64,000 nt of DNA from an uncultured Bacilli bacterium (lineage in GTDB: Bacteria > Bacillota_I > Bacilli_A > RF39 > UBA660). A program made the position numbers and the translations under genes. Under the pieces are notes generated by a model. It saw nothing but the letters and a program-made list of their open reading frames with translations. It was not told where the DNA came from and ran no database searches. Positions within the stretch are counted from its first letter, which is position 1, and each line of letters begins with the position of its first letter. The stretch covers positions 301,919 through 365,918 of the forward strand of contig CAKOLO010000002.1 of NCBI GenBank assembly GCA_934096235.1. Direction: 5' to 3'. Below are positions 18,576 to 57,879 of the stretch, piece after piece.

Positions 18576-18594
18576 ACTTTTCCTCACAAAAAAA

Positions 18595-18664
18595 GTGCAC
18601 ACAGAATAGTGTTTAAGGCTGCTATCTTCCGATTCTGACCTGATTCGCATTCTTTCTGTTGCAC
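18595..18664 (-). ncRNA. ffs: small (4.5S-like, ~70 nt) signal recognition particle RNA
   Basis: Minus strand reads GUGCAACAGAAAGAAUGCGAAUCAGGUCAGAAUCGGAAGAUAGCAGCCUUAAACACUAUUCUGUGUGCAC followed by a U-run. It contains the conserved domain-IV core CAGGUCAG...CGGAAG...AGCAGCC and a closing helix GUGCA../..UGUGCAC. It sits next to tadA and dnaX, as scr does in Bacillus. Ends are approximate. Confidence 0.55.
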
Positions 18665-18711
18665 AAATAAATTATATATTATTTTAAATATTAAATCAAG
18701 TATTTTTATTA

Positions 18712-50720: not shown

Positions 50721-51306
50721 TTGTTTAATTACAATTATTTTTATTTTTTTAATAAAATATATTGACACATTATAAATTATTTGATAATATATATTTGTCC
50801 AATAGATAATTAAATGTTATATCTATTATATAATGATTTATTTAAGTTTAATTATTTTTATAAACTTATATAATAATATAAATGGTTTAATTATATTAGT
50901 GAAAAAGTCTATAAATTTTTTACTTATTTATATTGGATATAATAATATTATTTTTCAATTATATGTTCTTAATTAGTATTAATTTACTAACTTAATTATG
51001 TATCTATCTTATTAATAATATCTTATATCAAAATAATATAAATAATAAAAATATCTTATTAATTTAAGAAATAGATGTCTTATCTACTAAGGACAAATGT
51101 TATAACGTTGAGAAAGTAAAACTCAAAATGATAAGAAATTATGCTAAATACTGATAATATTTAGAAGTATTTATATTAATTTAAATATTAATATAAATGA
51201 TTCATAATTTATTTTCGGAAACTCGAAACAATCTTGTTTTATCAGAACGGGTTGTTTTTTGTTTGTTTAAGAATGTGAAAAGTGATATTATAATTATGGT
51301 GAATAT

Positions 51307-51693
51307 ATGAAGCATATTAAGAAGTATTTAAGATTTTATATAATGTTTGGTGTTACTGCTTTAATTTCAATTTATTTAGTATTTTGGGGACCTAGTTCTA
51401 AGTATTTAGCAGTATATAAAGATAATATGACTATAGAGTATGATATGAATTCTAAAGAAGGGTATTCTTGGAGTTATGAGTCTAGTAATGATAATATTAA
51501 ACTTTCTAGTAATGAAGATGATAAATGGGTCTTTGAACCTAATAAAAATGGTAATACAACCTTAACTTTTTATTATAAGAATGGTGAAAATACATTATAC
51601 AAGATAATATATGGTATTAAAGTTTTAGGTAATAAAATCATTTGGACTAAAGGAGAAGGTATTGGCCTTACTAGCTATCCTAATCCTTATTAA
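51307..51693 (+). CDS. small membrane-anchored/secreted protein, possibly chagasin-like (I42) protease inhibitor
   Basis: N-terminal TM/signal; EGYSWSY and GNTTLTFYYKNG resemble the NPTTGYxW / G..L.F.Y pattern of the I42 family (tentative). Confidence 0.35.
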   Translation: MKHIKKYLRFYIMFGVTALISIYLVFWGPSSKYLAVYKDNMTIEYDMNSKEGYSWSYESSNDNIKLSSNEDDKWVFEPNKNGNTTLTFYYKNGENTLYKIIYGIKVLGNKIIWTKGEGIGLTSYPNPY

Positions 51694-51768: not shown

Positions 51769-52854
51769 ATGGAACCATATAAAGCTAAAAAATTACCTTT
51801 TAATTATGAACTTGATAACTCTATTATAAAACTTTTATGTGATGCGAAAGAAGCATATGGAGAATATAAAGGTTTTCTTAAGAGTATGACATTTGATTAT
51901 AAATCCTTTTTAGAATCTGCTTTTATAATTGATACATATTATTCTTTTAAAATTGATAATGCTAAGATTACAAAAAATGATATGTTTTTAATGCCTTATA
52001 AGAATAAAAATAATACTGTTATACAATTTAATAATATTAAGATGGCTTTATTGTCAGGTATTTCTTATGCTAGTAAGAGTGGATTTTCTATTGATGTATT
52101 TAATAAAATAAATAAAGCTCTTTTGACTAATTGTAAGAAGGATAATTCTACTAAAGGTAGTGGACATTTAAGAAAGACTCAAACATATATATTAAAGCCT
52201 GGTTTAGCTGGATCTAGTGTTTCATTTGTACCACCTTTGTATAATGAATTAAATGGTTATATGAAGAATTTATGTGATTATATGAATGAACCTGGTGAAC
52301 CTGATTTTATTGCTTTAGCTATAACACATTATCAGTATGAAAAACTACATCCATATTTAGCTGGTAATGGTAAAATTGGTAGACTTACTATACCTGTACA
52401 ATTATCTTTTTATAAAAAAGAACCCCCAATACTATTTATATCAGAAGCAATAGATAATTTAAAAAATACGTATTTCACTTTGTTAAGTGATGAAAATGAT
52501 GAGAAGTTTCCAAAATTTATAAAATTCATTTTAGAATGTATTATTAGTCAATGCAATATAAATATTAAAAGAATTAAAAAACTTAATAAAATATATACTA
52601 AAGATTTAGAAGATTTTAAAATTACTATAGGTGGAAGTACAATTTATAAAGCATATCCTGTTATAGCTAAGAGAATAGTATTTACTACTAATGATATAGT
52701 AGAAGAATGTAAATTACATATTAATTCTGTTAATAAAGTTCTAAACAAATTAGTAGAACAGGGATACTTAGTTAAAGAAAAAAAGAAAGGTACTAATAGA
52801 GTAACTTTCACTTATACTAATATGTATGATATATTAACTAATACTTCTAATTAA
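51769..52854 (+). CDS. Fic/Doc-family protein
   Basis: Fic motif HPYLAGNGKIGR (consensus HPFx[DE]GNGR) at roughly residue 190. Confidence 0.75.
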   Translation: MEPYKAKKLPFNYELDNSIIKLLCDAKEAYGEYKGFLKSMTFDYKSFLESAFIIDTYYSFKIDNAKITKNDMFLMPYKNKNNTVIQFNNIKMALLSGISYASKSGFSIDVFNKINKALLTNCKKDNSTKGSGHLRKTQTYILKPGLAGSSVSFVPPLYNELNGYMKNLCDYMNEPGEPDFIALAITHYQYEKLHPYLAGNGKIGRLTIPVQLSFYKKEPPILFISEAIDNLKNTYFTLLSDENDEKFPKFIKFILECIISQCNINIKRIKKLNKIYTKDLEDFKITIGGSTIYKAYPVIAKRIVFTTNDIVEECKLHINSVNKVLNKLVEQGYLVKEKKKGTNRVTFTYTNMYDILTNTSN

Positions 52855-53364
52855 ATTTATATAATAATGCACATTATTACTTGTTATATCTTCAAAGTAA
52901 ATATGTGCTTTTTTGTTTTCATTAATTAGGGTACAAATATTATTAAAGTCTAGTTTATTTAACTTAATATATTTATTTAAAAAATCTATATTTTTAGAGT
53001 ATTTATACATAAACATATTAATGAATTCTCTATGATAAAATTCTATATTACTATAATAGTATTTATCTGATAACAATATTTTATTATATTTATTATTTAG
53101 TGTTTCACTTAGAATATATCTTATTTTTAATTCACTAATATTTAATTTTTCTTTTATGAATGAAATATAGTTATCTAAATTAAATATAAATTGTTCTTGA
53201 AGAGAAATAAGTTTTTCTTTATGGATAAGATGAGAAGTAACTATTATACTAGAATCTTTTATTTTACTCATTATATCATCTAGTAGTTTATCATTTATAA
53301 AACTTATTATATCAGAACTATTGTTAATATATTTTTTTAATAAATAATCATTATAGTTCATCAT
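52834..53364 (-). CDS. hypothetical protein, translationally coupled to the upstream XRE regulator
   Basis: Strong GGAGG RBS inside the 3' end of the XRE gene; 14-bp overlap; no recognisable domain. Confidence 0.4.
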   Translation of the reverse strand: MMNYNDYLLKKYINNSSDIISFINDKLLDDIMSKIKDSSIIVTSHLIHKEKLISLQEQFIFNLDNYISFIKEKLNISELKIRYILSETLNNKYNKILLSDKYYYSNIEFYHREFINMFMYKYSKNIDFLNKYIKLNKLDFNNICTLINENKKAHIYFEDITSNNVHYYINLIRSIS

Positions 53365-53599
53365 TATCCTCCATAAATTTACTTATAGGTGTATTTAAAA
53401 CTATAGATATTTTATATAAATTAGTTATACTTATACCAGTTTTACATTTATTACTTTCTAAATTACTTATTAAAGAAACTGAGACATTGATTAATTCAGC
53501 AAGTTTTTCTTGTGTTATTTTTTTACCATTTAATATAGTTTTATTTCTATATTTCTTTATATTTTTACCAATTATCTTATTTAATTTATCTTGATTCAT
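53351..53599 (-). CDS. XRE-family HTH transcriptional regulator (paralogue 1)
   Basis: HTH_3-like QEKLAELINVSVSLISNLE; shares the C-terminal motif NLYKISIVLNTPISKF with paralogues 2 and 3. Confidence 0.6.
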   Translation of the reverse strand: MNQDKLNKIIGKNIKKYRNKTILNGKKITQEKLAELINVSVSLISNLESNKCKTGISITNLYKISIVLNTPISKFMEDNDEL

Positions 53600-53700
53600 A
53601 GTTCACCTAAAACAATTATAGAATAAATATCATTAAATGTATAGTACTACATTACATAATTAAATGTTAAAACAATGTAAAATATTACTTAGGTGAAAAG

Positions 53701-53961
53701 ATGACTAAGTTTAAGAGAGATTTTAATTTTGATGAAAATATAATTAAGACAATAGCATATAATGTTATTAAATATAGAAAGTTAAGTGGTATAACTCAAG
53801 AACAGCTTGCGATAGATATAGGTGTATCTCCTGAATTTATTAGAAAGTTTGAGAGTACTAGAGGAAGTGAAGGATTATCACTTATGTCTTTATATAAAAT
53901 ATCAGTTGTTCTTAATGTATCTATTGATAAATTTTTTGAATCAATAGAAGTTAACGATTAA
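53701..53961 (+). CDS. XRE-family HTH transcriptional regulator (paralogue 2)
   Basis: QEQLAIDIGVSPEFIRKFE HTH and SLYKISVVLNVSIDKF; divergent from paralogue 1 with a 100-bp spacer containing inverted repeats (TTACAT...ATGTAA). Confidence 0.6.
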   Translation: MTKFKRDFNFDENIIKTIAYNVIKYRKLSGITQEQLAIDIGVSPEFIRKFESTRGSEGLSLMSLYKISVVLNVSIDKFFESIEVND

Positions 53962-54214
53962 TAAAAAACTTTTCTATTGGGACATTTAATATTAGACTTA
54001 TCTTGTATAAATTATATATACTTATACCTTGGTAAGTCTTTTTACTTTCAAGATTACCTATTAATGACGTAGATACATTTGCTAGTTCTGCTAAATGTTC
54101 TTGTGTTAAATCTTTTACATTTAAGCTATATAGTTTTCTATAATATTTAATGTTTTTTCCTATAATAGTATAAATTTCTTTTTCATCTTTAAAATTGAAT
54201 GTATCTTTCATCAT
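53951..54214 (-). CDS. XRE-family HTH transcriptional regulator (paralogue 3)
   Basis: QEHLAELANVSTSLIGNLE and NLYKISLILNVPIEKF; convergent with paralogue 2. Confidence 0.6.
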   Translation of the reverse strand: MMKDTFNFKDEKEIYTIIGKNIKYYRKLYSLNVKDLTQEHLAELANVSTSLIGNLESKKTYQGISIYNLYKISLILNVPIEKFFINR

Positions 54215-54376: not shown

Positions 54377-56179
54377 ATGGAAAAAATTATTAACTTTGCT
54401 GTTGTTGCTCATGTAGATGCTGGTAAGAGTACTTTAGTAGATGCATTATTAAAACAAAATGGTGTTTTTAGAGAAAATGAGCAAGTTGTTGACTGTGTAA
54501 TGGATAGTGGAGATTTAGAACGTGAACGTGGTATTACTATTACTGCTAAAAACTGTTCTATAAAATATAAAGGCATTAAAATGAATATAGTTGATACTCC
54601 AGGACATGCTGATTTTTCTAGTGAAATAGAGAGAATAATTAAAACAGTAGATACTGTAGTATTATTAGTAGATTCAGCTGAAGGACCAATGCCTCAAACT
54701 AGATTTGTATTAAAAGAAGCATTAAAATTTGGACTTAGACCAATACTATTTATTAATAAAATAGATAAAAAAGATGCTCGTGCTGAAGAAGTAGTTAATA
54801 TGACTTTTGATTTATTTTGTGAATTAGGTGCAACTAATGAACAATTAGATTTTAAGATTATATATGGTATTGCTAAAGAAGGAATTGCTAAGTATGAAGA
54901 AAATGATGATAGTAAAGATATTACACCACTTCTTGATACAATTATAGAAACTACTAAACCATTTGAAGGAAATGAAAATGATCCTTTACAATTACAAATA
55001 TCATCACTTGATTATGATGATTATATTGGTAGACTAGGTATTGGTAGAATTAATAAAGGTAAAATTAAAGTTGGTGAAACAGTAGCAATATCTAAAAATA
55101 ATGGAGAACTTACAAAAGAAAGAATTACTAAGATATTTGTTAATGAAGGAATTAAGAGAAGAGAAGTAACTGAAGCTTACTATGGTGATATAGTTATAGT
55201 TGCTGGTTGTCCTGAAATATCTATAGGAGATACAATTTGTGATGTTAATCATGTAGACCCTCTACCAAAAATTGAAATAGAAAAACCTACACTATCAATG
55301 AATTTTATGGTTAATAATAGTCCATTTGCAGGTAAAGTTGGTAAGTTTGTTACATCTAGACATTTAAGAGATAGATTAATGGCTGAACTTGAACGTAATG
55401 TTGGACTTGAAGTTGAAGAGTTACCAAGTAGTGATGGATTTAAAGTATCTGGTCGTGGTGAATTACACTTATCAATATTAATTGAAAATATGAGAAGAGA
55501 AGGTTACGAATTAGGCGTTTCTAAACCTGAAGTTATTTTCCATGAAATAGATGGTGTTAAGTGTGAACCATATGAAAGAGTAGTAATTACTGTACCTAAT
55601 GATTATTCTGGAAATGTAATTAGTGATTTGAGTGAGAGAAAAGGTACTATGGAAATAATGGAACCTGCTGAAGATAATTATGTTAGACTTGAGTTTGTTG
55701 TTCCTACAAGAGGTTTAATAGGATATAGAAGTAACTTTATTACTAATACTAAGGGTGAAGGTATTATGGTTCGTAGTTTTGAAGATTATAGACCATATGC
55801 AGGAGAAATATCTGGACGTAAGAATGGCGTACTTGTATCTATGGAAAGTGGTAAGGCATTTGGATATGCATTATATAACTTATTAGATAGAGGTACTATG
55901 ATAATAGAACCATCTACTGAAGTATATTCTGGTATGATAGTTGGTATTAATAATAGAGAAAATGATTTAAATGTTAATCCATGTAAGAATAAAGAATTCT
56001 CTAATACACGTTCATCTGGTAGTGATGAAGCTATAGTACTTCCAAGACCTAGAACATTTACATTAGAAGAAGCATTAGAATTTATAGAGAAAGATGAACT
56101 TGTTGAAGTTACACCTGATGCGATAAGATTACGTAAGAAAATACTTGATGAAAAAGAAAGATTTAGAAATAATAGATAA
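54377..56179 (+). CDS. typA: translational GTPase TypA/BipA
   Basis: G1 AHVDAGKST, G3 DTPGHADF, NKID; 600 aa. Confidence 0.95.
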   Translation: MEKIINFAVVAHVDAGKSTLVDALLKQNGVFRENEQVVDCVMDSGDLERERGITITAKNCSIKYKGIKMNIVDTPGHADFSSEIERIIKTVDTVVLLVDSAEGPMPQTRFVLKEALKFGLRPILFINKIDKKDARAEEVVNMTFDLFCELGATNEQLDFKIIYGIAKEGIAKYEENDDSKDITPLLDTIIETTKPFEGNENDPLQLQISSLDYDDYIGRLGIGRINKGKIKVGETVAISKNNGELTKERITKIFVNEGIKRREVTEAYYGDIVIVAGCPEISIGDTICDVNHVDPLPKIEIEKPTLSMNFMVNNSPFAGKVGKFVTSRHLRDRLMAELERNVGLEVEELPSSDGFKVSGRGELHLSILIENMRREGYELGVSKPEVIFHEIDGVKCEPYERVVITVPNDYSGNVISDLSERKGTMEIMEPAEDNYVRLEFVVPTRGLIGYRSNFITNTKGEGIMVRSFEDYRPYAGEISGRKNGVLVSMESGKAFGYALYNLLDRGTMIIEPSTEVYSGMIVGINNRENDLNVNPCKNKEFSNTRSSGSDEAIVLPRPRTFTLEEALEFIEKDELVEVTPDAIRLRKKILDEKERFRNNR

Positions 56180-56222
56180 AATAAAAGACTTAAGAATTTC
56201 TTAAGTCTTTTTGTATTGGAAA

Positions 56223-56750
56223 CTATTTAGTTTTAAATTTACTTAATACTTTTGCGGCTACGAATATTATTGAGTCGCTATTTTTAATTGCTTGTTTTTT
56301 TCCTATAGCTTTGCCACCTACTGTTAGTGATGAGATAATTGAACTTACTAATAGAGTAACAATTACTGTAGATACATTTAACTTGGTAGATATATTTATT
56401 GCAAGCATTGCTCCTATAGAACCACTTACTATACCACATATATCTCCGATAACATCATTACATATACTTGCGATTGTACTTGAGTTTTTAACTAGATAAA
56501 CTCCTTCTTTTGAACCTTTTATTTTTTTAGCACTTTTCGCATGAAATGATGCTTCGTTAGCTGTTAAGACAGCTGTACCTATAATATCAAATAAAATACC
56601 TATACCAATAAATATTACACATAGCACCATTAAAAGTATTGTATTATTGAATTTTGATATTAGATAGTTAGATGCACTACTAAAAATTAAAGCTATAAAA
56701 AAAGTCATTAAAAATGCCTTTAGAATCCAATTATCTTTTTTCATTTTCAA
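56223..56750 (-). CDS. hypothetical integral membrane protein
   Basis: Four predicted TM segments; RBS AAAGGGAG. Confidence 0.45.
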   Translation of the reverse strand: MKMKKDNWILKAFLMTFFIALIFSSASNYLISKFNNTILLMVLCVIFIGIGILFDIIGTAVLTANEASFHAKSAKKIKGSKEGVYLVKNSSTIASICNDVIGDICGIVSGSIGAMLAINISTKLNVSTVIVTLLVSSIISSLTVGGKAIGKKQAIKNSDSIIFVAAKVLSKFKTK

Positions 56751-57265
56751 TAAACTCCCTTTAAATATGTAAAATAGTATGGAATATTATAAATTAATTT
56801 TACGGCTTTGGTCGAGTTGAATTTCTCTAATTCCTACCATTAGTTACCTGCAGGCGATTTCTCTTTAAAAGAATTAATCACTTGTTACCATTAATGATCA
56901 CTCGATCACCACTTAGTCCGCACTTCAATCTTTATAATATAGGCATACTAGAGGTTTTCCCAAGCAAACATGTATCACCTTTATTCGCTTTTGCAATTTA
57001 TTTTTCAATCACTATCCCAATAAATCACTCACGACATGTGTTTTCATATTTTCCGATGTGAATTAAGGAATTCAGATATATGCCATTACATCTTATCCTT
57101 AAAACTAAAATTATATATCCACCCCAAACTGGGCGTAAGAAGCGTAATATATAAAGTATCATTTTACACAATTGATGGATTTTTAGCCCCATCTTCTAGT
57201 GGTATGTTTGACTAGTATAATGCTCCATACATCTAGAATTATAGCATATTTTAATGAAAATGTCA

Positions 57266-57298
57266 AAAGACACACTATATTATATGAAGTGTGTCTTT
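57266..57298 (-). terminator. hairpin terminator at the 3' end of the 57280-57879 gene
   Basis: aaagacacac-(13 nt loop)-gtgtgtcttt, followed on the minus strand by TTTTGACATTTTC. Confidence 0.4.
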
Positions 57299-57879
57299 AA
57301 ATTATTAATGTTTTTTGTTACTTTTTTCTTTCTTTTCTTTCTTTTTATTTCTCTTATGAGAGCTACTGCAGTTGATGTGATTTCCATTATATTTCCAATT
57401 ACACATACATATGCTTGAAATTTTAAATTATAAAATAGCCATGCTATTGCGCATGTTCCAAATACTAACTTATAAACTTTTGGATCTTTAAATGATGCTC
57501 CAATTGTATATATTATTGCTACTATTACTGGAAGAAGTGATAAAGGATTAGTATAGGTAAGTGTACCTACGAATGCAGTTATTAATATAATTATTACTGG
57601 CAATATAAGTGGTATTTTCTTTTTACCTTTATCATATTTATAAAATATTGATATTCTTAATACTGAGATTATATCCATGAATGCAGCTGAAAAAGCTCCC
57701 AATAGTGCATATTGGAATGAGTATAACATATGAGCTGCTGATTGAACTAACATCATGTGTTTTTTCTTTCTACATTGAACAGAAAGAGTCATAGTAAGCA
57801 TTGCAGCTGCACCAATTAATTGAGCGTATAATATATTCATATAATCTCCTAGTATATATATTATAATATTTTTTTTCAT
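57280..57879 (-). CDS. hypothetical integral membrane protein with basic C-terminal tail
   Basis: Five to six TM segments; C-terminus KRKKRKKKV. Confidence 0.45.
   Translation of the reverse strand: MKKNIIIYILGDYMNILYAQLIGAAAMLTMTLSVQCRKKKHMMLVQSAAHMLYSFQYALLGAFSAAFMDIISVLRISIFYKYDKGKKKIPLILPVIIILITAFVGTLTYTNPLSLLPVIVAIIYTIGASFKDPKVYKLVFGTCAIAWLFYNLKFQAYVCVIGNIMEITSTAVALIREIKRKKRKKKVTKNINNLKTHFI

What the first reader, a model, noticed from the sequence alone, without database searches (positions are those of the whole stretch)
56760..57280. GC-enriched ~450-bp noncoding segment with internal direct repeats and no ORF
Between two same-strand membrane-protein genes lies a 530-bp ORF-free region whose central 400 bp (about 56790-57200) is visibly GC-richer than its surroundings, with features such as gcctgcaggcg, gtgatcgagtgatc and ccaccccaaactgggcg. 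In a ~25% GC genome this normally marks a structured RNA or foreign or decayed DNA. It contains the direct repeats ATTTCTCT...TACCATTA(G/A)T twice and GATCAC-TC-GATCAC. I checked by eye for tmRNA (no GGGG..UUCGAC 5' end, no ALAA tag-stop, no CCA 3' end), RNase P RNA (no GGAAAGUCC) and tRNA (no T-loop GTTCGAATC), and found none. A TATAAT box and AAAGGGAG RBS for the downstream gene lie at its promoter-proximal end. So it could be a long 5' leader/riboswitch, a 6S-like RNA, or a pseudogene remnant.
Basis: seen in the sequence. Interest (0 to 1): 0.5.

Follow-up and report, generated by a model that had tools for sequence, protein, structure and literature searches.

The report
Shortened OLE RNA gene with oapA
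The "GC-rich gene-free segment" is the gene for OLE RNA, a known large structured non-coding RNA of Gram-positive bacteria. It is read from the minus strand just ahead of the gene for its membrane-protein partner OapA, and it is the already described shortened form found in small-genome gut bacteria.

Summary
Window 56751-57279 has no ORF of 60 aa or more, lies between two minus-strand membrane-protein genes, is modestly GC-enriched (0.33 vs 0.257), and contains the quoted repeats. A perfect TTGACA-17-TGnTATAAT promoter, conserved in relatives, sits 7-8 nt before helix P1. The 173-aa gene 33 nt downstream is oapA: four TM helices, a DxxxD motif, a CNNM-like fold, and homologs directly downstream of OLE in 76 of 78 reference loci. 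Across 35 short copies, 129 base pairs are 90% paired (36-42% in slid controls) and 66 show compensatory changes. The RNA is about 455 nt instead of about 600. It lacks P7, P8 and a small hairpin, and its distal P9 arm is replaced by a GUGA tetraloop. This matches the published "variant 2" OLE of RF39-type gut bacteria (Fernando and Breaker 2024). Verdict: a real, functional-looking structured RNA that is already known. The riboswitch, 6S and pseudogene readings are rejected. The one mildly new point is the loss of the P9 dimerisation loop in this sub-clade.

The parts
57238..57266 (-). Sigma-70-type promoter of the ole-oapA unit. -35 TTGACA at 57266..57261, 17-nt spacer, extended -10 TGcTATAAT with TATAAT at 57243..57238. 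The predicted start is about 57232-57230.
   Evidence: It matches 12 of 12 consensus positions and has the TG extension. The same TTGACA / TGnTATAAT pair sits at a fixed 7-8 nt before the first P1 nucleotide in most of the 34 relatives. The start site is inferred, not measured.
56763..57244 (-). Rfam OLE RNA match (RF01071), model positions 1-616, 482 nt.
   Evidence: 207.3 bits against a gathering score of 50, E 7.6e-57, not truncated.
56777..57230 (-). Structured core of the OLE RNA, about 454 nt, from the P1 5' strand (57230..57224) to the P1 3' strand (56783..56777).
   Evidence: P1 GUAUGGA/UCCAUAC shows an A-U to U-A swap (16 vs 16 sequences) and a G-C to U-A swap (helix 1). The single-sequence MFE fold recovers P1, P4, P5, P6.1 and the domain-2 outer helix, with z = -2.9.
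57201..57223 (-). 5' strands of long-range helices P2 (57223..57212, containing an invariant CUAG) and P3/P3.1 (57210..57201). Their partners are at 56951..56943 (P2) and 56979..56965 (P3).
   Evidence: These helices are not in the Rfam consensus structure. I found them by complementarity and tested them on alignment A2. P2 is 99-100% paired, with one pair showing 4 Watson-Crick types. P3 is 88% paired with 5 of 7 pairs covarying. P3.1 is weaker at 69% (helices 2-5). The helix names follow the text of PMC12265935.
57174..57193 (-). P4 hairpin with the A-rich loop CUAAAAAU. In full-length OLE this loop forms dimer bridge B1.
   Evidence: The loop is invariant in 35 of 35 sequences. The stem is 100% paired with 2 covarying pairs (helix 6). 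The role comes from cryo-EM of clostridial OLE and is inferred here.
57060..57156 (-). P5/P5.1 (57156..57105, loop GCCCAG at 57134..57129) and P6/P6.1 (57104..57060, loop GUAAUGGCAU at 57089..57080). In full-length OLE these loops kiss between the two monomers.
   Evidence: The loop cores (CCCA of GCCCAG; GGCAU of AAUGGCAU) are invariant in all 35 sequences; the other loop positions vary slightly. In the window both loops match the family consensus. P5 has 11 covarying pairs and P6/P6.1 has 8 (helices 7-9).
57036..57059 (-). 24-nt linker that stands where full-length OLE has hairpins P7 and P8.
   Evidence: Model positions 198-277 (two hairpins in the full-length Aeribacillus copy) are replaced by 19 unaligned nt. 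Among the short copies where the sequence anchors were unambiguous, the distance from the P6.1 loop to P9 is 46-59 nt, against about 85-150 nt in longer forms.
56985..57035 (-). Truncated P9. Basal stems and the conserved GGGAU / UGAAA internal-loop motifs are kept. The distal arm is replaced by A-[GUGA]-U, a GNRA tetraloop at 57012..57009.
   Evidence: 50 model positions, including the GGCC palindromic end loop seen in L049, are replaced by 4 nt. Relatives carry GCAA, GUAA or GAAA at the same place. The P9 stem has 7 covarying pairs and is 97% paired (helix 11).
56784..56941 (-). 3' domain ('domain 2'). It contains the outer helix (56941..56932 with 56793..56784), P12.2 (56905..56900 with 56817..56812), P13 with a GUAA loop (56899..56876), P14, and P14.1 with a GUAA loop (56855..56836). 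Two conserved AGAGAAAU motifs lie at 56864..56857 and 56828..56821.
   Evidence: Paired fractions are: outer helix 98%, the helix between the outer helix and P12.2 100%, P12.2 100%, P13 88%, P14 98%, and P14.1 70%. P14 covaries at all 8 pairs and P13 at 7 of 8 (helices 14-19). The P13 loop is GNRA in 35 of 35 sequences and the P14.1 loop is GUAA in 35 of 35. Names follow PMC7936274.
56755..56762 (-). Ribosome-binding site AAAGGGAG of oapA.
   Evidence: Read directly from the sequence. An equivalent GGAG/GGGAG lies before the ATG in relatives.
56223..56744 (-). oapA, encoding the OLE-associated membrane protein A (173 aa; ATG at 56744, TAG at 56225..56223).
   Evidence: - Four hydrophobic helices, at about residues 7-27, 36-60, 98-118 and 124-144.
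- Lys-rich loop at residues 68-86 and a Lys-rich C-terminal tail.
- D97-x3-D101 is invariant in alignment A1. DxxxD is the published OapA hallmark.
- AF2 model pLDDT is 82. The top five PDB fold matches are CNNM/CorB/CorC TM domains 7M1T, 7M1U and 7CFF.
- Homologs lie just downstream of OLE in reference genomes.
56183..56211 (-). Intrinsic terminator that closes the ole-oapA unit.
   Evidence: 13-bp stem followed by a T-rich tail (ATTTTAT). typA (54377..56179, +) converges on it.
57266..57298 (-). Hairpin AAAGACACAC-13 nt-GTGTGTCTTT at the end of the upstream ygjV-like gene. It is probably that gene's terminator and would insulate ole from read-through.
   Evidence: Read from the sequence. It is conserved in L001-L005. 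The terminator scan did not call it because its loop is longer than 8 nt, so the function is inferred.

Best explanation
The segment is the ole gene for OLE (ornate, large, extremophilic) RNA, on the minus strand. It is the shortened 'variant 2' form typical of small-genome gut Bacilli.

Shown here:
- A consensus sigma-70 promoter lies directly upstream, and no terminator separates the RNA from the next gene. The ole-oapA pair therefore looks like one transcription unit, closed by a terminator after oapA.
- The RNA folds into the OLE architecture: P1-P3 long-range helices, P4, P5/5.1, P6/6.1, a short P9, and the P12-P15 four-way region. This fold is conserved with many compensatory changes in 35 related genomes.
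- The downstream gene has every sequence and fold hallmark of OapA.

Inferred from published work on Halalkalibacterium halodurans and clostridial OLE:
- The RNA is made abundantly and released from, or terminated before, the oapA message.
- It dimerises through the P4 A-rich loops and P5.1-P6.1 kissing loops.
- It is bound and held at the cell membrane by dimers of OapA, a CNNM/MpfA-like putative divalent-cation transporter.
- The particle helps the cell cope with stresses such as Mg2+ excess, alcohols, cold and poor carbon sources.

Its exact biochemical activity is unknown in any organism. This copy dispenses with P7, P8, a small hairpin and the distal P9 arm, so it represents a near-minimal working core.
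For: - Rfam: OLE at 207.3 bits against a threshold of 50, E 7.6e-57, end to end, and the only family hit in the region.
- Covariation on 35 short copies: 129 pairs, 90.1% of cells paired against 36-42% with partners slid by 1-3 columns, 66 pairs changed on both sides, and 0 of 500 shuffles as high on all five measures.
- Promoter: a perfect 12/12 match with TG extension, conserved in position in relatives.
- Synteny: an OLE match lies upstream of the OapA homolog on the same strand in 20 of 20 loci by Rfam. With nhmmer and a further Rfam search this becomes 76 of the 78 loci that have enough flank. The OLE is directly upstream in nearly all; in L045 it is 1.8 kb upstream. These loci include cultivated Aeribacillus pallidus and Thermovenabulum with full-length OLE at 505-533 bits.
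- OapA hallmarks: four TM helices, a basic loop, DxxxD, and a CNNM-like fold.
- Missing parts: the deleted model regions are hairpins P7 and P8 and the distal P9 arm. Loss of P7 and P8 matches the published variant 2: 'entirely lack P7 and P8', common in RF39, largely without OapB and OapC (PMC11332333).
- Nearest relatives: human and animal gut MAGs labelled uncultured Bacilli, Clostridium sp., Erysipelotrichaceae or Tenericutes. The longest contigs holding the protein are about 1.4 Mb.
Against: - There are no expression data, so the transcript ends and abundance are inferred.
- The bit score is less than half that of full-length OLE (207 vs 400-533), and about 130 model positions are absent.
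- The P9 end loop that forms one of the dimer bridges in the cryo-EM structures is missing. Dimerisation of this form is therefore an assumption.
- Helices P3.1 and P14.1 are only 69-70% paired in the MAFFT alignment.
- Assignment of the host to RF39 rests on record titles and the literature, not on a phylogeny done here.
- The molecular function of OLE RNA is unknown in every organism.
Confidence: 0.95

Rival explanations
1. The structured element is a cis-acting 5' leader or riboswitch that controls translation or termination of the downstream membrane-protein gene, rather than a free-standing RNA.
For: - It lies in the same transcription unit, 33 nt upstream of oapA, with no terminator in between in the window.
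- In several relatives a U-run or a hairpin terminator follows the P1 3' strand, which could act as an attenuator.
Against: - It matches OLE, which in H. halodurans accumulates as a discrete, very abundant RNA of about 630 nt and binds the OapA, OapB and OapC proteins in trans (PMC9723947).
- At 450 nt with about 19 helices, it is far beyond any known riboswitch.
- In L045 the OLE lies 1.8 kb away from oapA.
- No riboswitch family was hit.
Confidence: 0.03
2. It is a decaying, non-functional remnant of a full-length OLE gene in a genome undergoing reduction.
For: - It has lost P7, P8, a small hairpin and most of P9, and it scores only 207 bits.
- The host lineage has a reduced genome.
- The literature mentions rare defective OLE genes.
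Against: - The same shortened architecture is kept in 35 distinct genomes, with 75% mean column identity, more than 180 invariant positions, and 66 pairs showing compensatory changes.
- The deletions are clean excisions of whole hairpins, and one of them is capped by a GNRA tetraloop.
- A perfect promoter is retained.
- oapA is intact and highly conserved. The defective copies reported in the literature occur in genomes that lack OapA.
Confidence: 0.015
3. It is a 6S-like RNA, a protein-gene remnant, a mobile-element end, or just a chance compositional fluctuation.
For: - The GC excess alone is modest, within the top 4% of windows.
- Short ORFs of 24-59 aa exist in the region.
Against: - There is no 6S, tmRNA or RNase P hit, and the only family hit in the region is OLE at E 8e-57.
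- Conservation follows RNA pairing, not codons.
- The element is found at the same place relative to oapA in distant Bacillota.
Confidence: 0.005

Closest known systems
OLE RNA 'variant 2' (Fernando and Breaker 2024, mSphere, PMC11332333)
   Same: - It lacks P7 and P8 entirely while keeping the highly conserved nucleotides of OLE.
- It is found in uncultured, small-genome gut bacteria.
- It is paired with oapA.
   Different: - The text of that paper does not mention the further reduction seen here: the distal P9 arm replaced by a GNRA tetraloop, and loss of the small hairpin at model positions 424-435. I could not see its Figure 1.
- Their bit-score classes used a different model, so the scores are not comparable.
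Full-length OLE RNA (Rfam RF01071; Halalkalibacterium halodurans, Clostridium acetobutylicum)
   Same: - The order and pairing of P1-P6, basal P9 and P10-P15 are the same.
- The signature loops are the same: CUAAAAAU, GCCCA, AAUGGCAU, GGACUAAGUGG, and GNRA on P13 and P14.1.
- It has its own promoter, and oapA lies directly downstream.
   Different: - It is about 455 nt instead of about 577-630 nt.
- It has no P7 or P8.
- It has no distal P9 with the palindromic L9.3 loop (dimer bridge B3 in PMC12286853).
- It is not embedded in a large operon. Here it sits between a ygjV-like gene and the convergent typA.
OLE RNA 'variant 1' (TANB77 clade)
   Same: It is a shortened OLE from reduced-genome gut bacteria.
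   Different: Variant 1 keeps shortened P7, P8 and P9 and often lacks the OapB site at the end of P13. The window copy has no P7 or P8 but keeps a GNRA-capped P13.
MpfA / CorB / CorC (CNNM-domain Mg2+ transporters), compared with the protein partner OapA
   Same: The transmembrane fold is the same: the top five PDB matches are 7M1T, 7M1U and 7CFF, with TM-scores of 0.51-0.60. This is the same result published for H. halodurans OapA.
   Different: - OapA has no CBS or CorC domains.
- It carries DxxxD, which CNNM domains lack.
- There is no significant Pfam PF01595 hit for this sequence.
- It works with an RNA partner.

Membership tests
OLE RNA (Rfam RF01071) | Covariance-model score above the curated gathering threshold over the full model | tested here: met
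   207.3 bits against 50, E 7.6e-57, model positions 1-616, not truncated.
OLE RNA (Rfam RF01071) | Conserved multi-helix secondary structure supported by covariation | tested here: met
   129 pairs in 19 helices, 90.1% paired against 36-42% in slid controls, 66 pairs with changes on both sides, 0 of 500 shuffles as high.
OLE RNA (Rfam RF01071) | Signature conserved loop and joining sequences (P4 CUAAAAAU, P5.1 GCCCA, P6.1 AAUGGCAU, GGACUAAGUGG, GNRA on P13 and P14.1) | tested here: met
   All are present in the window, and their core positions are invariant across the 35 short copies.
OLE RNA (Rfam RF01071) | Gene immediately upstream of oapA on the same strand | tested here: met
   The P1 3' strand ends at 56777 and the oapA ATG is at 56744. 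The same arrangement occurs in nearly all related loci: OLE lies upstream of oapA in 76 of 78, with L045 separated by 1.8 kb.
OLE RNA (Rfam RF01071) | Host in Bacillota | tested here: met
   The nearest loci (97-99% OapA identity) are MAGs titled uncultured Bacilli or Clostridium sp.. Candidatus Coprovivens, a genus among the relatives, is placed in Bacilli incertae sedis.
OLE RNA (Rfam RF01071) | Stable, abundant RNA that OapA localises to the membrane | not testable with these tools
   This needs RNA-seq or Northern data plus localisation or binding assays. It is known only for H. halodurans.
Full-length OLE RNA | Hairpins P7 and P8 present | tested here: not met
   Model positions 198-277 are replaced by 19 nt. 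They form two hairpins in L049.
Full-length OLE RNA | Long P9 with a palindromic end loop (L9.3; GGCC, GAUC or AGCU) that forms the symmetric kissing loop | tested here: not met
   50 model positions are replaced by the GUGA tetraloop. The GGCC loop is visible in L049. The feature is described in PMC12286853.
OLE variant 2 (PMC11332333) | Entire absence of P7 and P8 with the conserved core retained | tested here: met
OLE variant 2 (PMC11332333) | Host in RF39-type reduced-genome gut lineages | tested here: inconclusive
   Record titles and contigs of about 1.4 Mb fit this, but no GTDB placement was available.
OLE variant 2 (PMC11332333) | OapB and OapC usually absent from the genome | not tested
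   Only 64 kb of the genome is in hand, so absence cannot be judged. The P13 GNRA loop that OapB binds is nevertheless kept.
OapA | Small protein of about 20 kDa with four transmembrane helices and a conserved cluster of basic residues | tested here: met
   173 aa. Hydrophobic segments at residues 7-27, 36-60, 98-118 and 124-144. K/R at residues 70, 73, 74, 76, 79 and 86, and in the tail at 145-173. The AF2 model is helical with pLDDT 82.
OapA | DxxxD motif | tested here: met
   D97-VIG-D101, both invariant in alignment A1. The motif is named as distinctive of OapA in PMC11332333.
OapA | Distant CNNM(DUF21)-like fold | tested here: met
   The Foldseek top five are 7M1T, 7M1U and 7CFF, with probability 1.00 and TM 0.51-0.60, although E-values are only 7e-3 to 0.4. 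There is no direct Pfam hit. Close homologs carry precomputed PF01595 hits.
OapA | Binds OLE RNA | not testable with these tools
   This needs a biochemical assay.

The most novel reading that the evidence does not exclude
This sub-clade carries a more extreme minimal OLE than the published text describes.

- Besides P7 and P8, the whole distal P9 arm is replaced by a GNRA tetraloop. That arm includes the palindromic loop that forms one of the RNA-RNA dimer bridges and the 'arch' seen in the cryo-EM structures.
- A small hairpin after P2 is also gone.
- If this RNA is functional with OapA as its only dedicated partner, the P9 arch and bridge B3 are dispensable. The working core of OLE would then be about 455 nt.
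- That would make it a convenient minimal construct for structural and functional work on an RNA whose biochemical role is still unknown.
Probability: 0.3. Interest if true: 0.35.

Novelty: already known. Interest (0 to 1): 0.2.

Why it matters
[quoted passage not shown] Recent work proposes that it dimerises and may even span the membrane. Finding it here adds nothing new in kind: Rfam detects it, and the shortened gut-bacterial form was published in 2024.

The practical value is correct annotation of a 'gene-free' gap and of the unnamed 173-aa protein as OapA.

A smaller point is that this lineage shows how far OLE can be trimmed by nature. It has no P7, no P8 and no distal P9 with its kissing loop, yet the remaining helices and loops stay under strong selection. 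That could guide the design of minimal constructs.

Tried and rejected
1. Self-complementary P9 loop. I first read the short P9 tip (UGAUUG here, CAAUUG or UAAUUG in relatives) as a self-complementary loop that might replace the lost kissing loop. I rejected this because the variable 4 nt are GUGA, GCAA, GUAA or GAAA closed by A-U. That is a GNRA tetraloop cap, and AAUU-type palindromes are expected by chance in AT-rich RNA.

2. Pfam and NCBIfam on the 173-aa protein. These gave no family, and PF01595 did not appear even at E up to 10. The CNNM link came only from the fold search.

3. Regex anchors to measure segment lengths. These were clean for the short class but noisy for full-length copies. 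I used them only qualitatively and replaced them with the Rfam alignment of L049.

4. Published list of variant-2 accessions. I looked for one to see whether this exact lineage was listed. The only supplement held has no such list.

5. A covariance model of the whole short form. This could not be built because of the 400-column limit, so covariation was counted on a MAFFT alignment. That is conservative for the structure.

6. It lies in a 98%-paired conserved helix. It cannot be excluded as an internal oapA promoter, but it is explained without one.
Full report
OBSERVATION

I read 56400-57600.

- Between 56751 and 57279 there is no ORF of 60 aa or more. Only nine ORFs of 24-59 aa overlap the gap.
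- Both flanking genes are on the minus strand and encode membrane proteins. Upstream is a 199-aa YgjV-family protein (PF10688, E 2e-29; 57879..57280). Downstream is a 173-aa protein with four hydrophobic helices (56744..56223).
- GC is 0.328 for 56790-57200, against 0.257 for the whole window. Only 3.9% of windows of that size reach this value. The excess is real but modest, because nearby coding DNA also reaches 0.31-0.33.
- The quoted strings and repeats are present, except that 'gcctgcaggcg' is really acctgcaggcg.

IDENTITY

A scan of the whole window against all 4227 Rfam families gave three hits. One covers the finding: OLE RNA (RF01071) on the minus strand, 57244..56763, at 207.3 bits against a gathering score of 50, E 7.6e-57, model positions 1-616, not truncated. 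No riboswitch, 6S, tmRNA or RNase P model matched there.

TRANSCRIPTION UNIT

- Promoter. The promoter scan found a 12-of-12 match on the minus strand: TTGACA, 17 nt, TATAAT, with a TG extension, at 57266..57238.
- Conservation of the promoter. In most of the 34 related genomes the same TTGACA and TGnTATAAT boxes lie at a fixed 7-8 nt before the first nucleotide of helix P1. I therefore infer a start at about 57232-57230.
- Upstream insulation. Just upstream, a 10-bp hairpin (57298..57266) overlaps the stop codon of the ygjV-like gene and probably terminates it.
- Downstream. Only 33 nt separate the P1 3' strand (ending at 56777) from the ATG at 56744, and they contain the RBS AAAGGGAG. No terminator lies in between. 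A 13-bp terminator follows the protein gene at 56211..56183, facing the convergent typA (TIGR01394, 876 bits).
- Published context. In H. halodurans, ole likewise has its own promoter and accumulates as a discrete, very abundant RNA (PMC9723947).

THE PARTNER GENE

The 173-aa protein has no Pfam or NCBIfam family, but it meets every published hallmark of OapA.

- It has four TM helices and a lysine-rich loop and tail (description in PMC12265935).
- It has a DxxxD motif, D97...D101, invariant in 14 homologs (named as distinctive of OapA in PMC11332333).
- The decisive test is synteny. A genome-collection scan with the protein alignment returned 80 loci.
  - Rfam found OLE upstream of the homolog, on the same strand, in 20 of 20 sampled loci. 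It was directly upstream in nearly all.
  - nhmmer with the window RNA, plus a further Rfam search, raised this to 76 of the 78 loci with enough upstream flank.
  - These include cultivated Aeribacillus pallidus (533 bits) and Thermovenabulum (505 bits).
  - The exceptions are L052 and L066, which have no OLE within 2.5 kb, and L045, where OLE is 1.8 kb upstream.

STRUCTURE

I projected the Rfam consensus pairs onto the window RNA (103 pairs, 92 canonical). I then added three long-range helices that Rfam does not annotate but that newer OLE models describe in text:

- P1: GUAUGGA / UCCAUAC.
- P2: GCAU...ACUAG / CUAGUAUGC.
- P3 and P3.1: CAAACAU-ACC / GGU...AUGUUUG.

On a MAFFT alignment of the window and 34 short relatives (75% mean column identity), the results were as follows.

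- The 129 pairs are 90.1% paired, against 36-42% when the 3' partners are slid by 1-3 columns.
- 66 pairs change on both sides.
- None of 500 column shuffles reaches the observed values.
- P1 shows a clean A-U to U-A swap (16 vs 16 sequences). P2 has one pair with four Watson-Crick types. P3 covaries at 5 of 7 pairs.
- P3.1 and P14.1 are weaker, at 69-70% paired.

The single-sequence MFE fold of 57231..56776 independently recovers P1, P4, P5, P6.1 and the outer helix of the 3' domain, with z = -2.9.

WHAT IS MISSING

The RNA core is about 454 nt, against 577-630 nt for characterised OLE RNAs. The Rfam alignment skips three model regions.

- Positions 198-277 are replaced by 19 nt. In the full-length Aeribacillus copy these positions form two hairpins, P7 and P8.
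- About 50 positions inside P9 are replaced by 4 nt. In Aeribacillus these form the distal P9 arm ending in a UUGGCCA loop. That is the palindromic L9.3 loop which Kretsch et al. show forming a symmetric kissing loop between the two monomers (PMC12286853).
- Hairpin 424-435 is replaced by 1 nt.

In the window the distal P9 arm is replaced by A-[GUGA]-U. Relatives have GCAA, GUAA or GAAA there, so this is a GNRA cap. Ten of the 35 short copies keep a longer P9 tip, and L039 has a GAUC loop.

WHAT IS KEPT

- The A-rich P4 loop, which forms bridge B1.
- The P5.1 and P6.1 loops, which form the kissing bridges.
- The CUAG palindrome of P2.
- The P12.2-P15 four-way region, with GNRA loops on P13 (35 of 35) and P14.1 (35 of 35) (roles).

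- ATTTCTCT twice corresponds to two AGAGAAAU motifs in the RNA (family consensus GGGAAA).
- TACCATTA twice corresponds to UAAUGGUA. One copy runs into the P13 GUAA loop and the other lies in the P14.1 3' strand.
- GATCACTCGATCAC is the P12.2 5' strand plus the start of P13.
- CCACCCCAAACTGGGCG is the P5.1 loop and its 3' strand.

COMPARISON WITH THE LITERATURE

Fernando and Breaker (mSphere 2024, PMC11332333) searched all GTDB genomes and defined full-length, variant 1 (TANB77) and variant 2 OLE RNAs.

- Variant 2 RNAs 'entirely lack P7 and P8' and are common in RF39. RF39 is an uncultured gut lineage with highly reduced genomes that largely lacks OapB and OapC.
- The window's nearest relatives are gut MAGs titled uncultured Bacilli, Clostridium sp., Erysipelotrichaceae or Tenericutes. 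The protein occurs on contigs of up to about 1.4 Mb. This fits RF39, although I could not obtain a GTDB placement.
- Lyon and Breaker (RNA 2025, PMC12265935) note that P7 and P8 are not dimer contacts, which may explain why they can be lost. They list the P9 loop as the fourth dimerisation centre. The window's sub-clade has lost that too. The texts I could read do not say so, and I could not see the figures.

MECHANISM

Shown here:
- Promoter, RNA fold, conservation, adjacency to oapA, and the OapA hallmarks.

Inferred from published work on other species:
- The RNA accumulates and dimerises through P4 and P5.1-P6.1.
- It is tethered at the membrane by OapA dimers binding near P2 and P4a.
- The particle contributes to tolerance of Mg2+, alcohol, cold and carbon-source stress, perhaps by doing for OapA what the CBS and CorC domains do for MpfA-type Mg2+ transporters.

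The biochemical activity of OLE is unknown everywhere.

RIVALS

- A cis-acting leader is unlikely given the family identity and the trans-acting RNP biology. In addition, L045 separates ole from oapA by 1.8 kb.
- A decaying pseudogene is contradicted by the conserved shortened architecture with 66 compensatory pairs, clean hairpin excisions, a perfect promoter and an intact oapA.
- 6S, a protein remnant, a mobile-element end, and chance composition are excluded.

VERDICT

It is OLE RNA in its published short form, together with oapA. Novelty: already known. Interest is low (0.2). A modest residual point is that this sub-clade also lacks the P9 kissing loop, which makes it a natural near-minimal OLE.

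Noticed in passing
window 51072-51164 (+): PGK RNA motif (RF03040) at 82 bits against a threshold of 50.8. It is followed by a 128-aa ORF with an N-terminal hydrophobic segment (51307-51693) and a 361-aa ORF with a Fic-like HPYLAGNGKIGR motif (51769-52854). This motif has no established function.
   Followed up: no
window 18589-18668 (-): Bacterial small SRP RNA (RF00169) at 48.1 bits against a threshold of 40. This is an ordinary housekeeping RNA.
   Followed up: no
window 53351-54214: Three small paralogous ORFs of 82-87 aa lie in alternating orientation at 53351-53599 (-), 53701-53961 (+) and 53951-54214 (-). They share an HTH-like '...NLYKIS..LN..I.KF' C-terminus and sit next to the Fic-like gene. 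They may be a regulator or toxin-antitoxin-like cluster.
   Followed up: no
L012, L013, L038, L078, L025, L048, L050, L032, L024 (between the OLE 3' end and oapA): In these relatives a run of 7-10 U follows the P1 3' strand, or in L024 a clear hairpin terminator does, before the oapA RBS. This suggests partial termination that would set the OLE:oapA ratio. The window copy has only UAUUUU.
   Followed up: partly
L052, L066, L045: L052 and L066 have an OapA homolog with no OLE match within 2.5 kb upstream. In L045 the OLE lies 1.8 kb upstream rather than adjacent. These are exceptions to the otherwise strict ole-oapA adjacency.
   Followed up: partly
L025, L027, L032, L045, L055, L066: These contigs carry ole-oapA but are titled Muribaculaceae or Bacteroidaceae MAGs. 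They are probably mis-binned Bacillota contigs. The OLE literature also attributes non-Bacillota hits to possible horizontal gene transfer or genome-assembly errors.
   Followed up: no
L039:1968-2482 and nine other short variants (L028, L023, L017, L018, L024, L019, L036, L050, L032): Ten of the 35 P7/P8-less OLE copies keep a longer P9 tip of 15-39 nt. L039 has a GAUC palindrome in its end loop, like the L9.3 kissing loop of full-length OLE. Loss of the P9 arm is therefore a separate, later step from loss of P7 and P8.
   Followed up: partly
window 56876-56899 and 56836-56855 (-): The GNRA tetraloop of P13, which is the OapB docking site in H. halodurans, is kept in 35 of 35 short variants. 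The GUAA loop of P14.1 is also kept in 35 of 35. This holds although RF39-type genomes are reported to lack OapB. The loop's RNA-RNA contact with P12.2 may be what is under selection.
   Followed up: partly
window 57266-57298 (-): The stop codon of the ygjV-like gene lies in the loop of a 10-bp hairpin. The 3' arm of that hairpin overlaps the first T of the -35 box of the ole promoter. This is a very compact terminator-promoter junction, conserved in L001-L005.
   Followed up: partly
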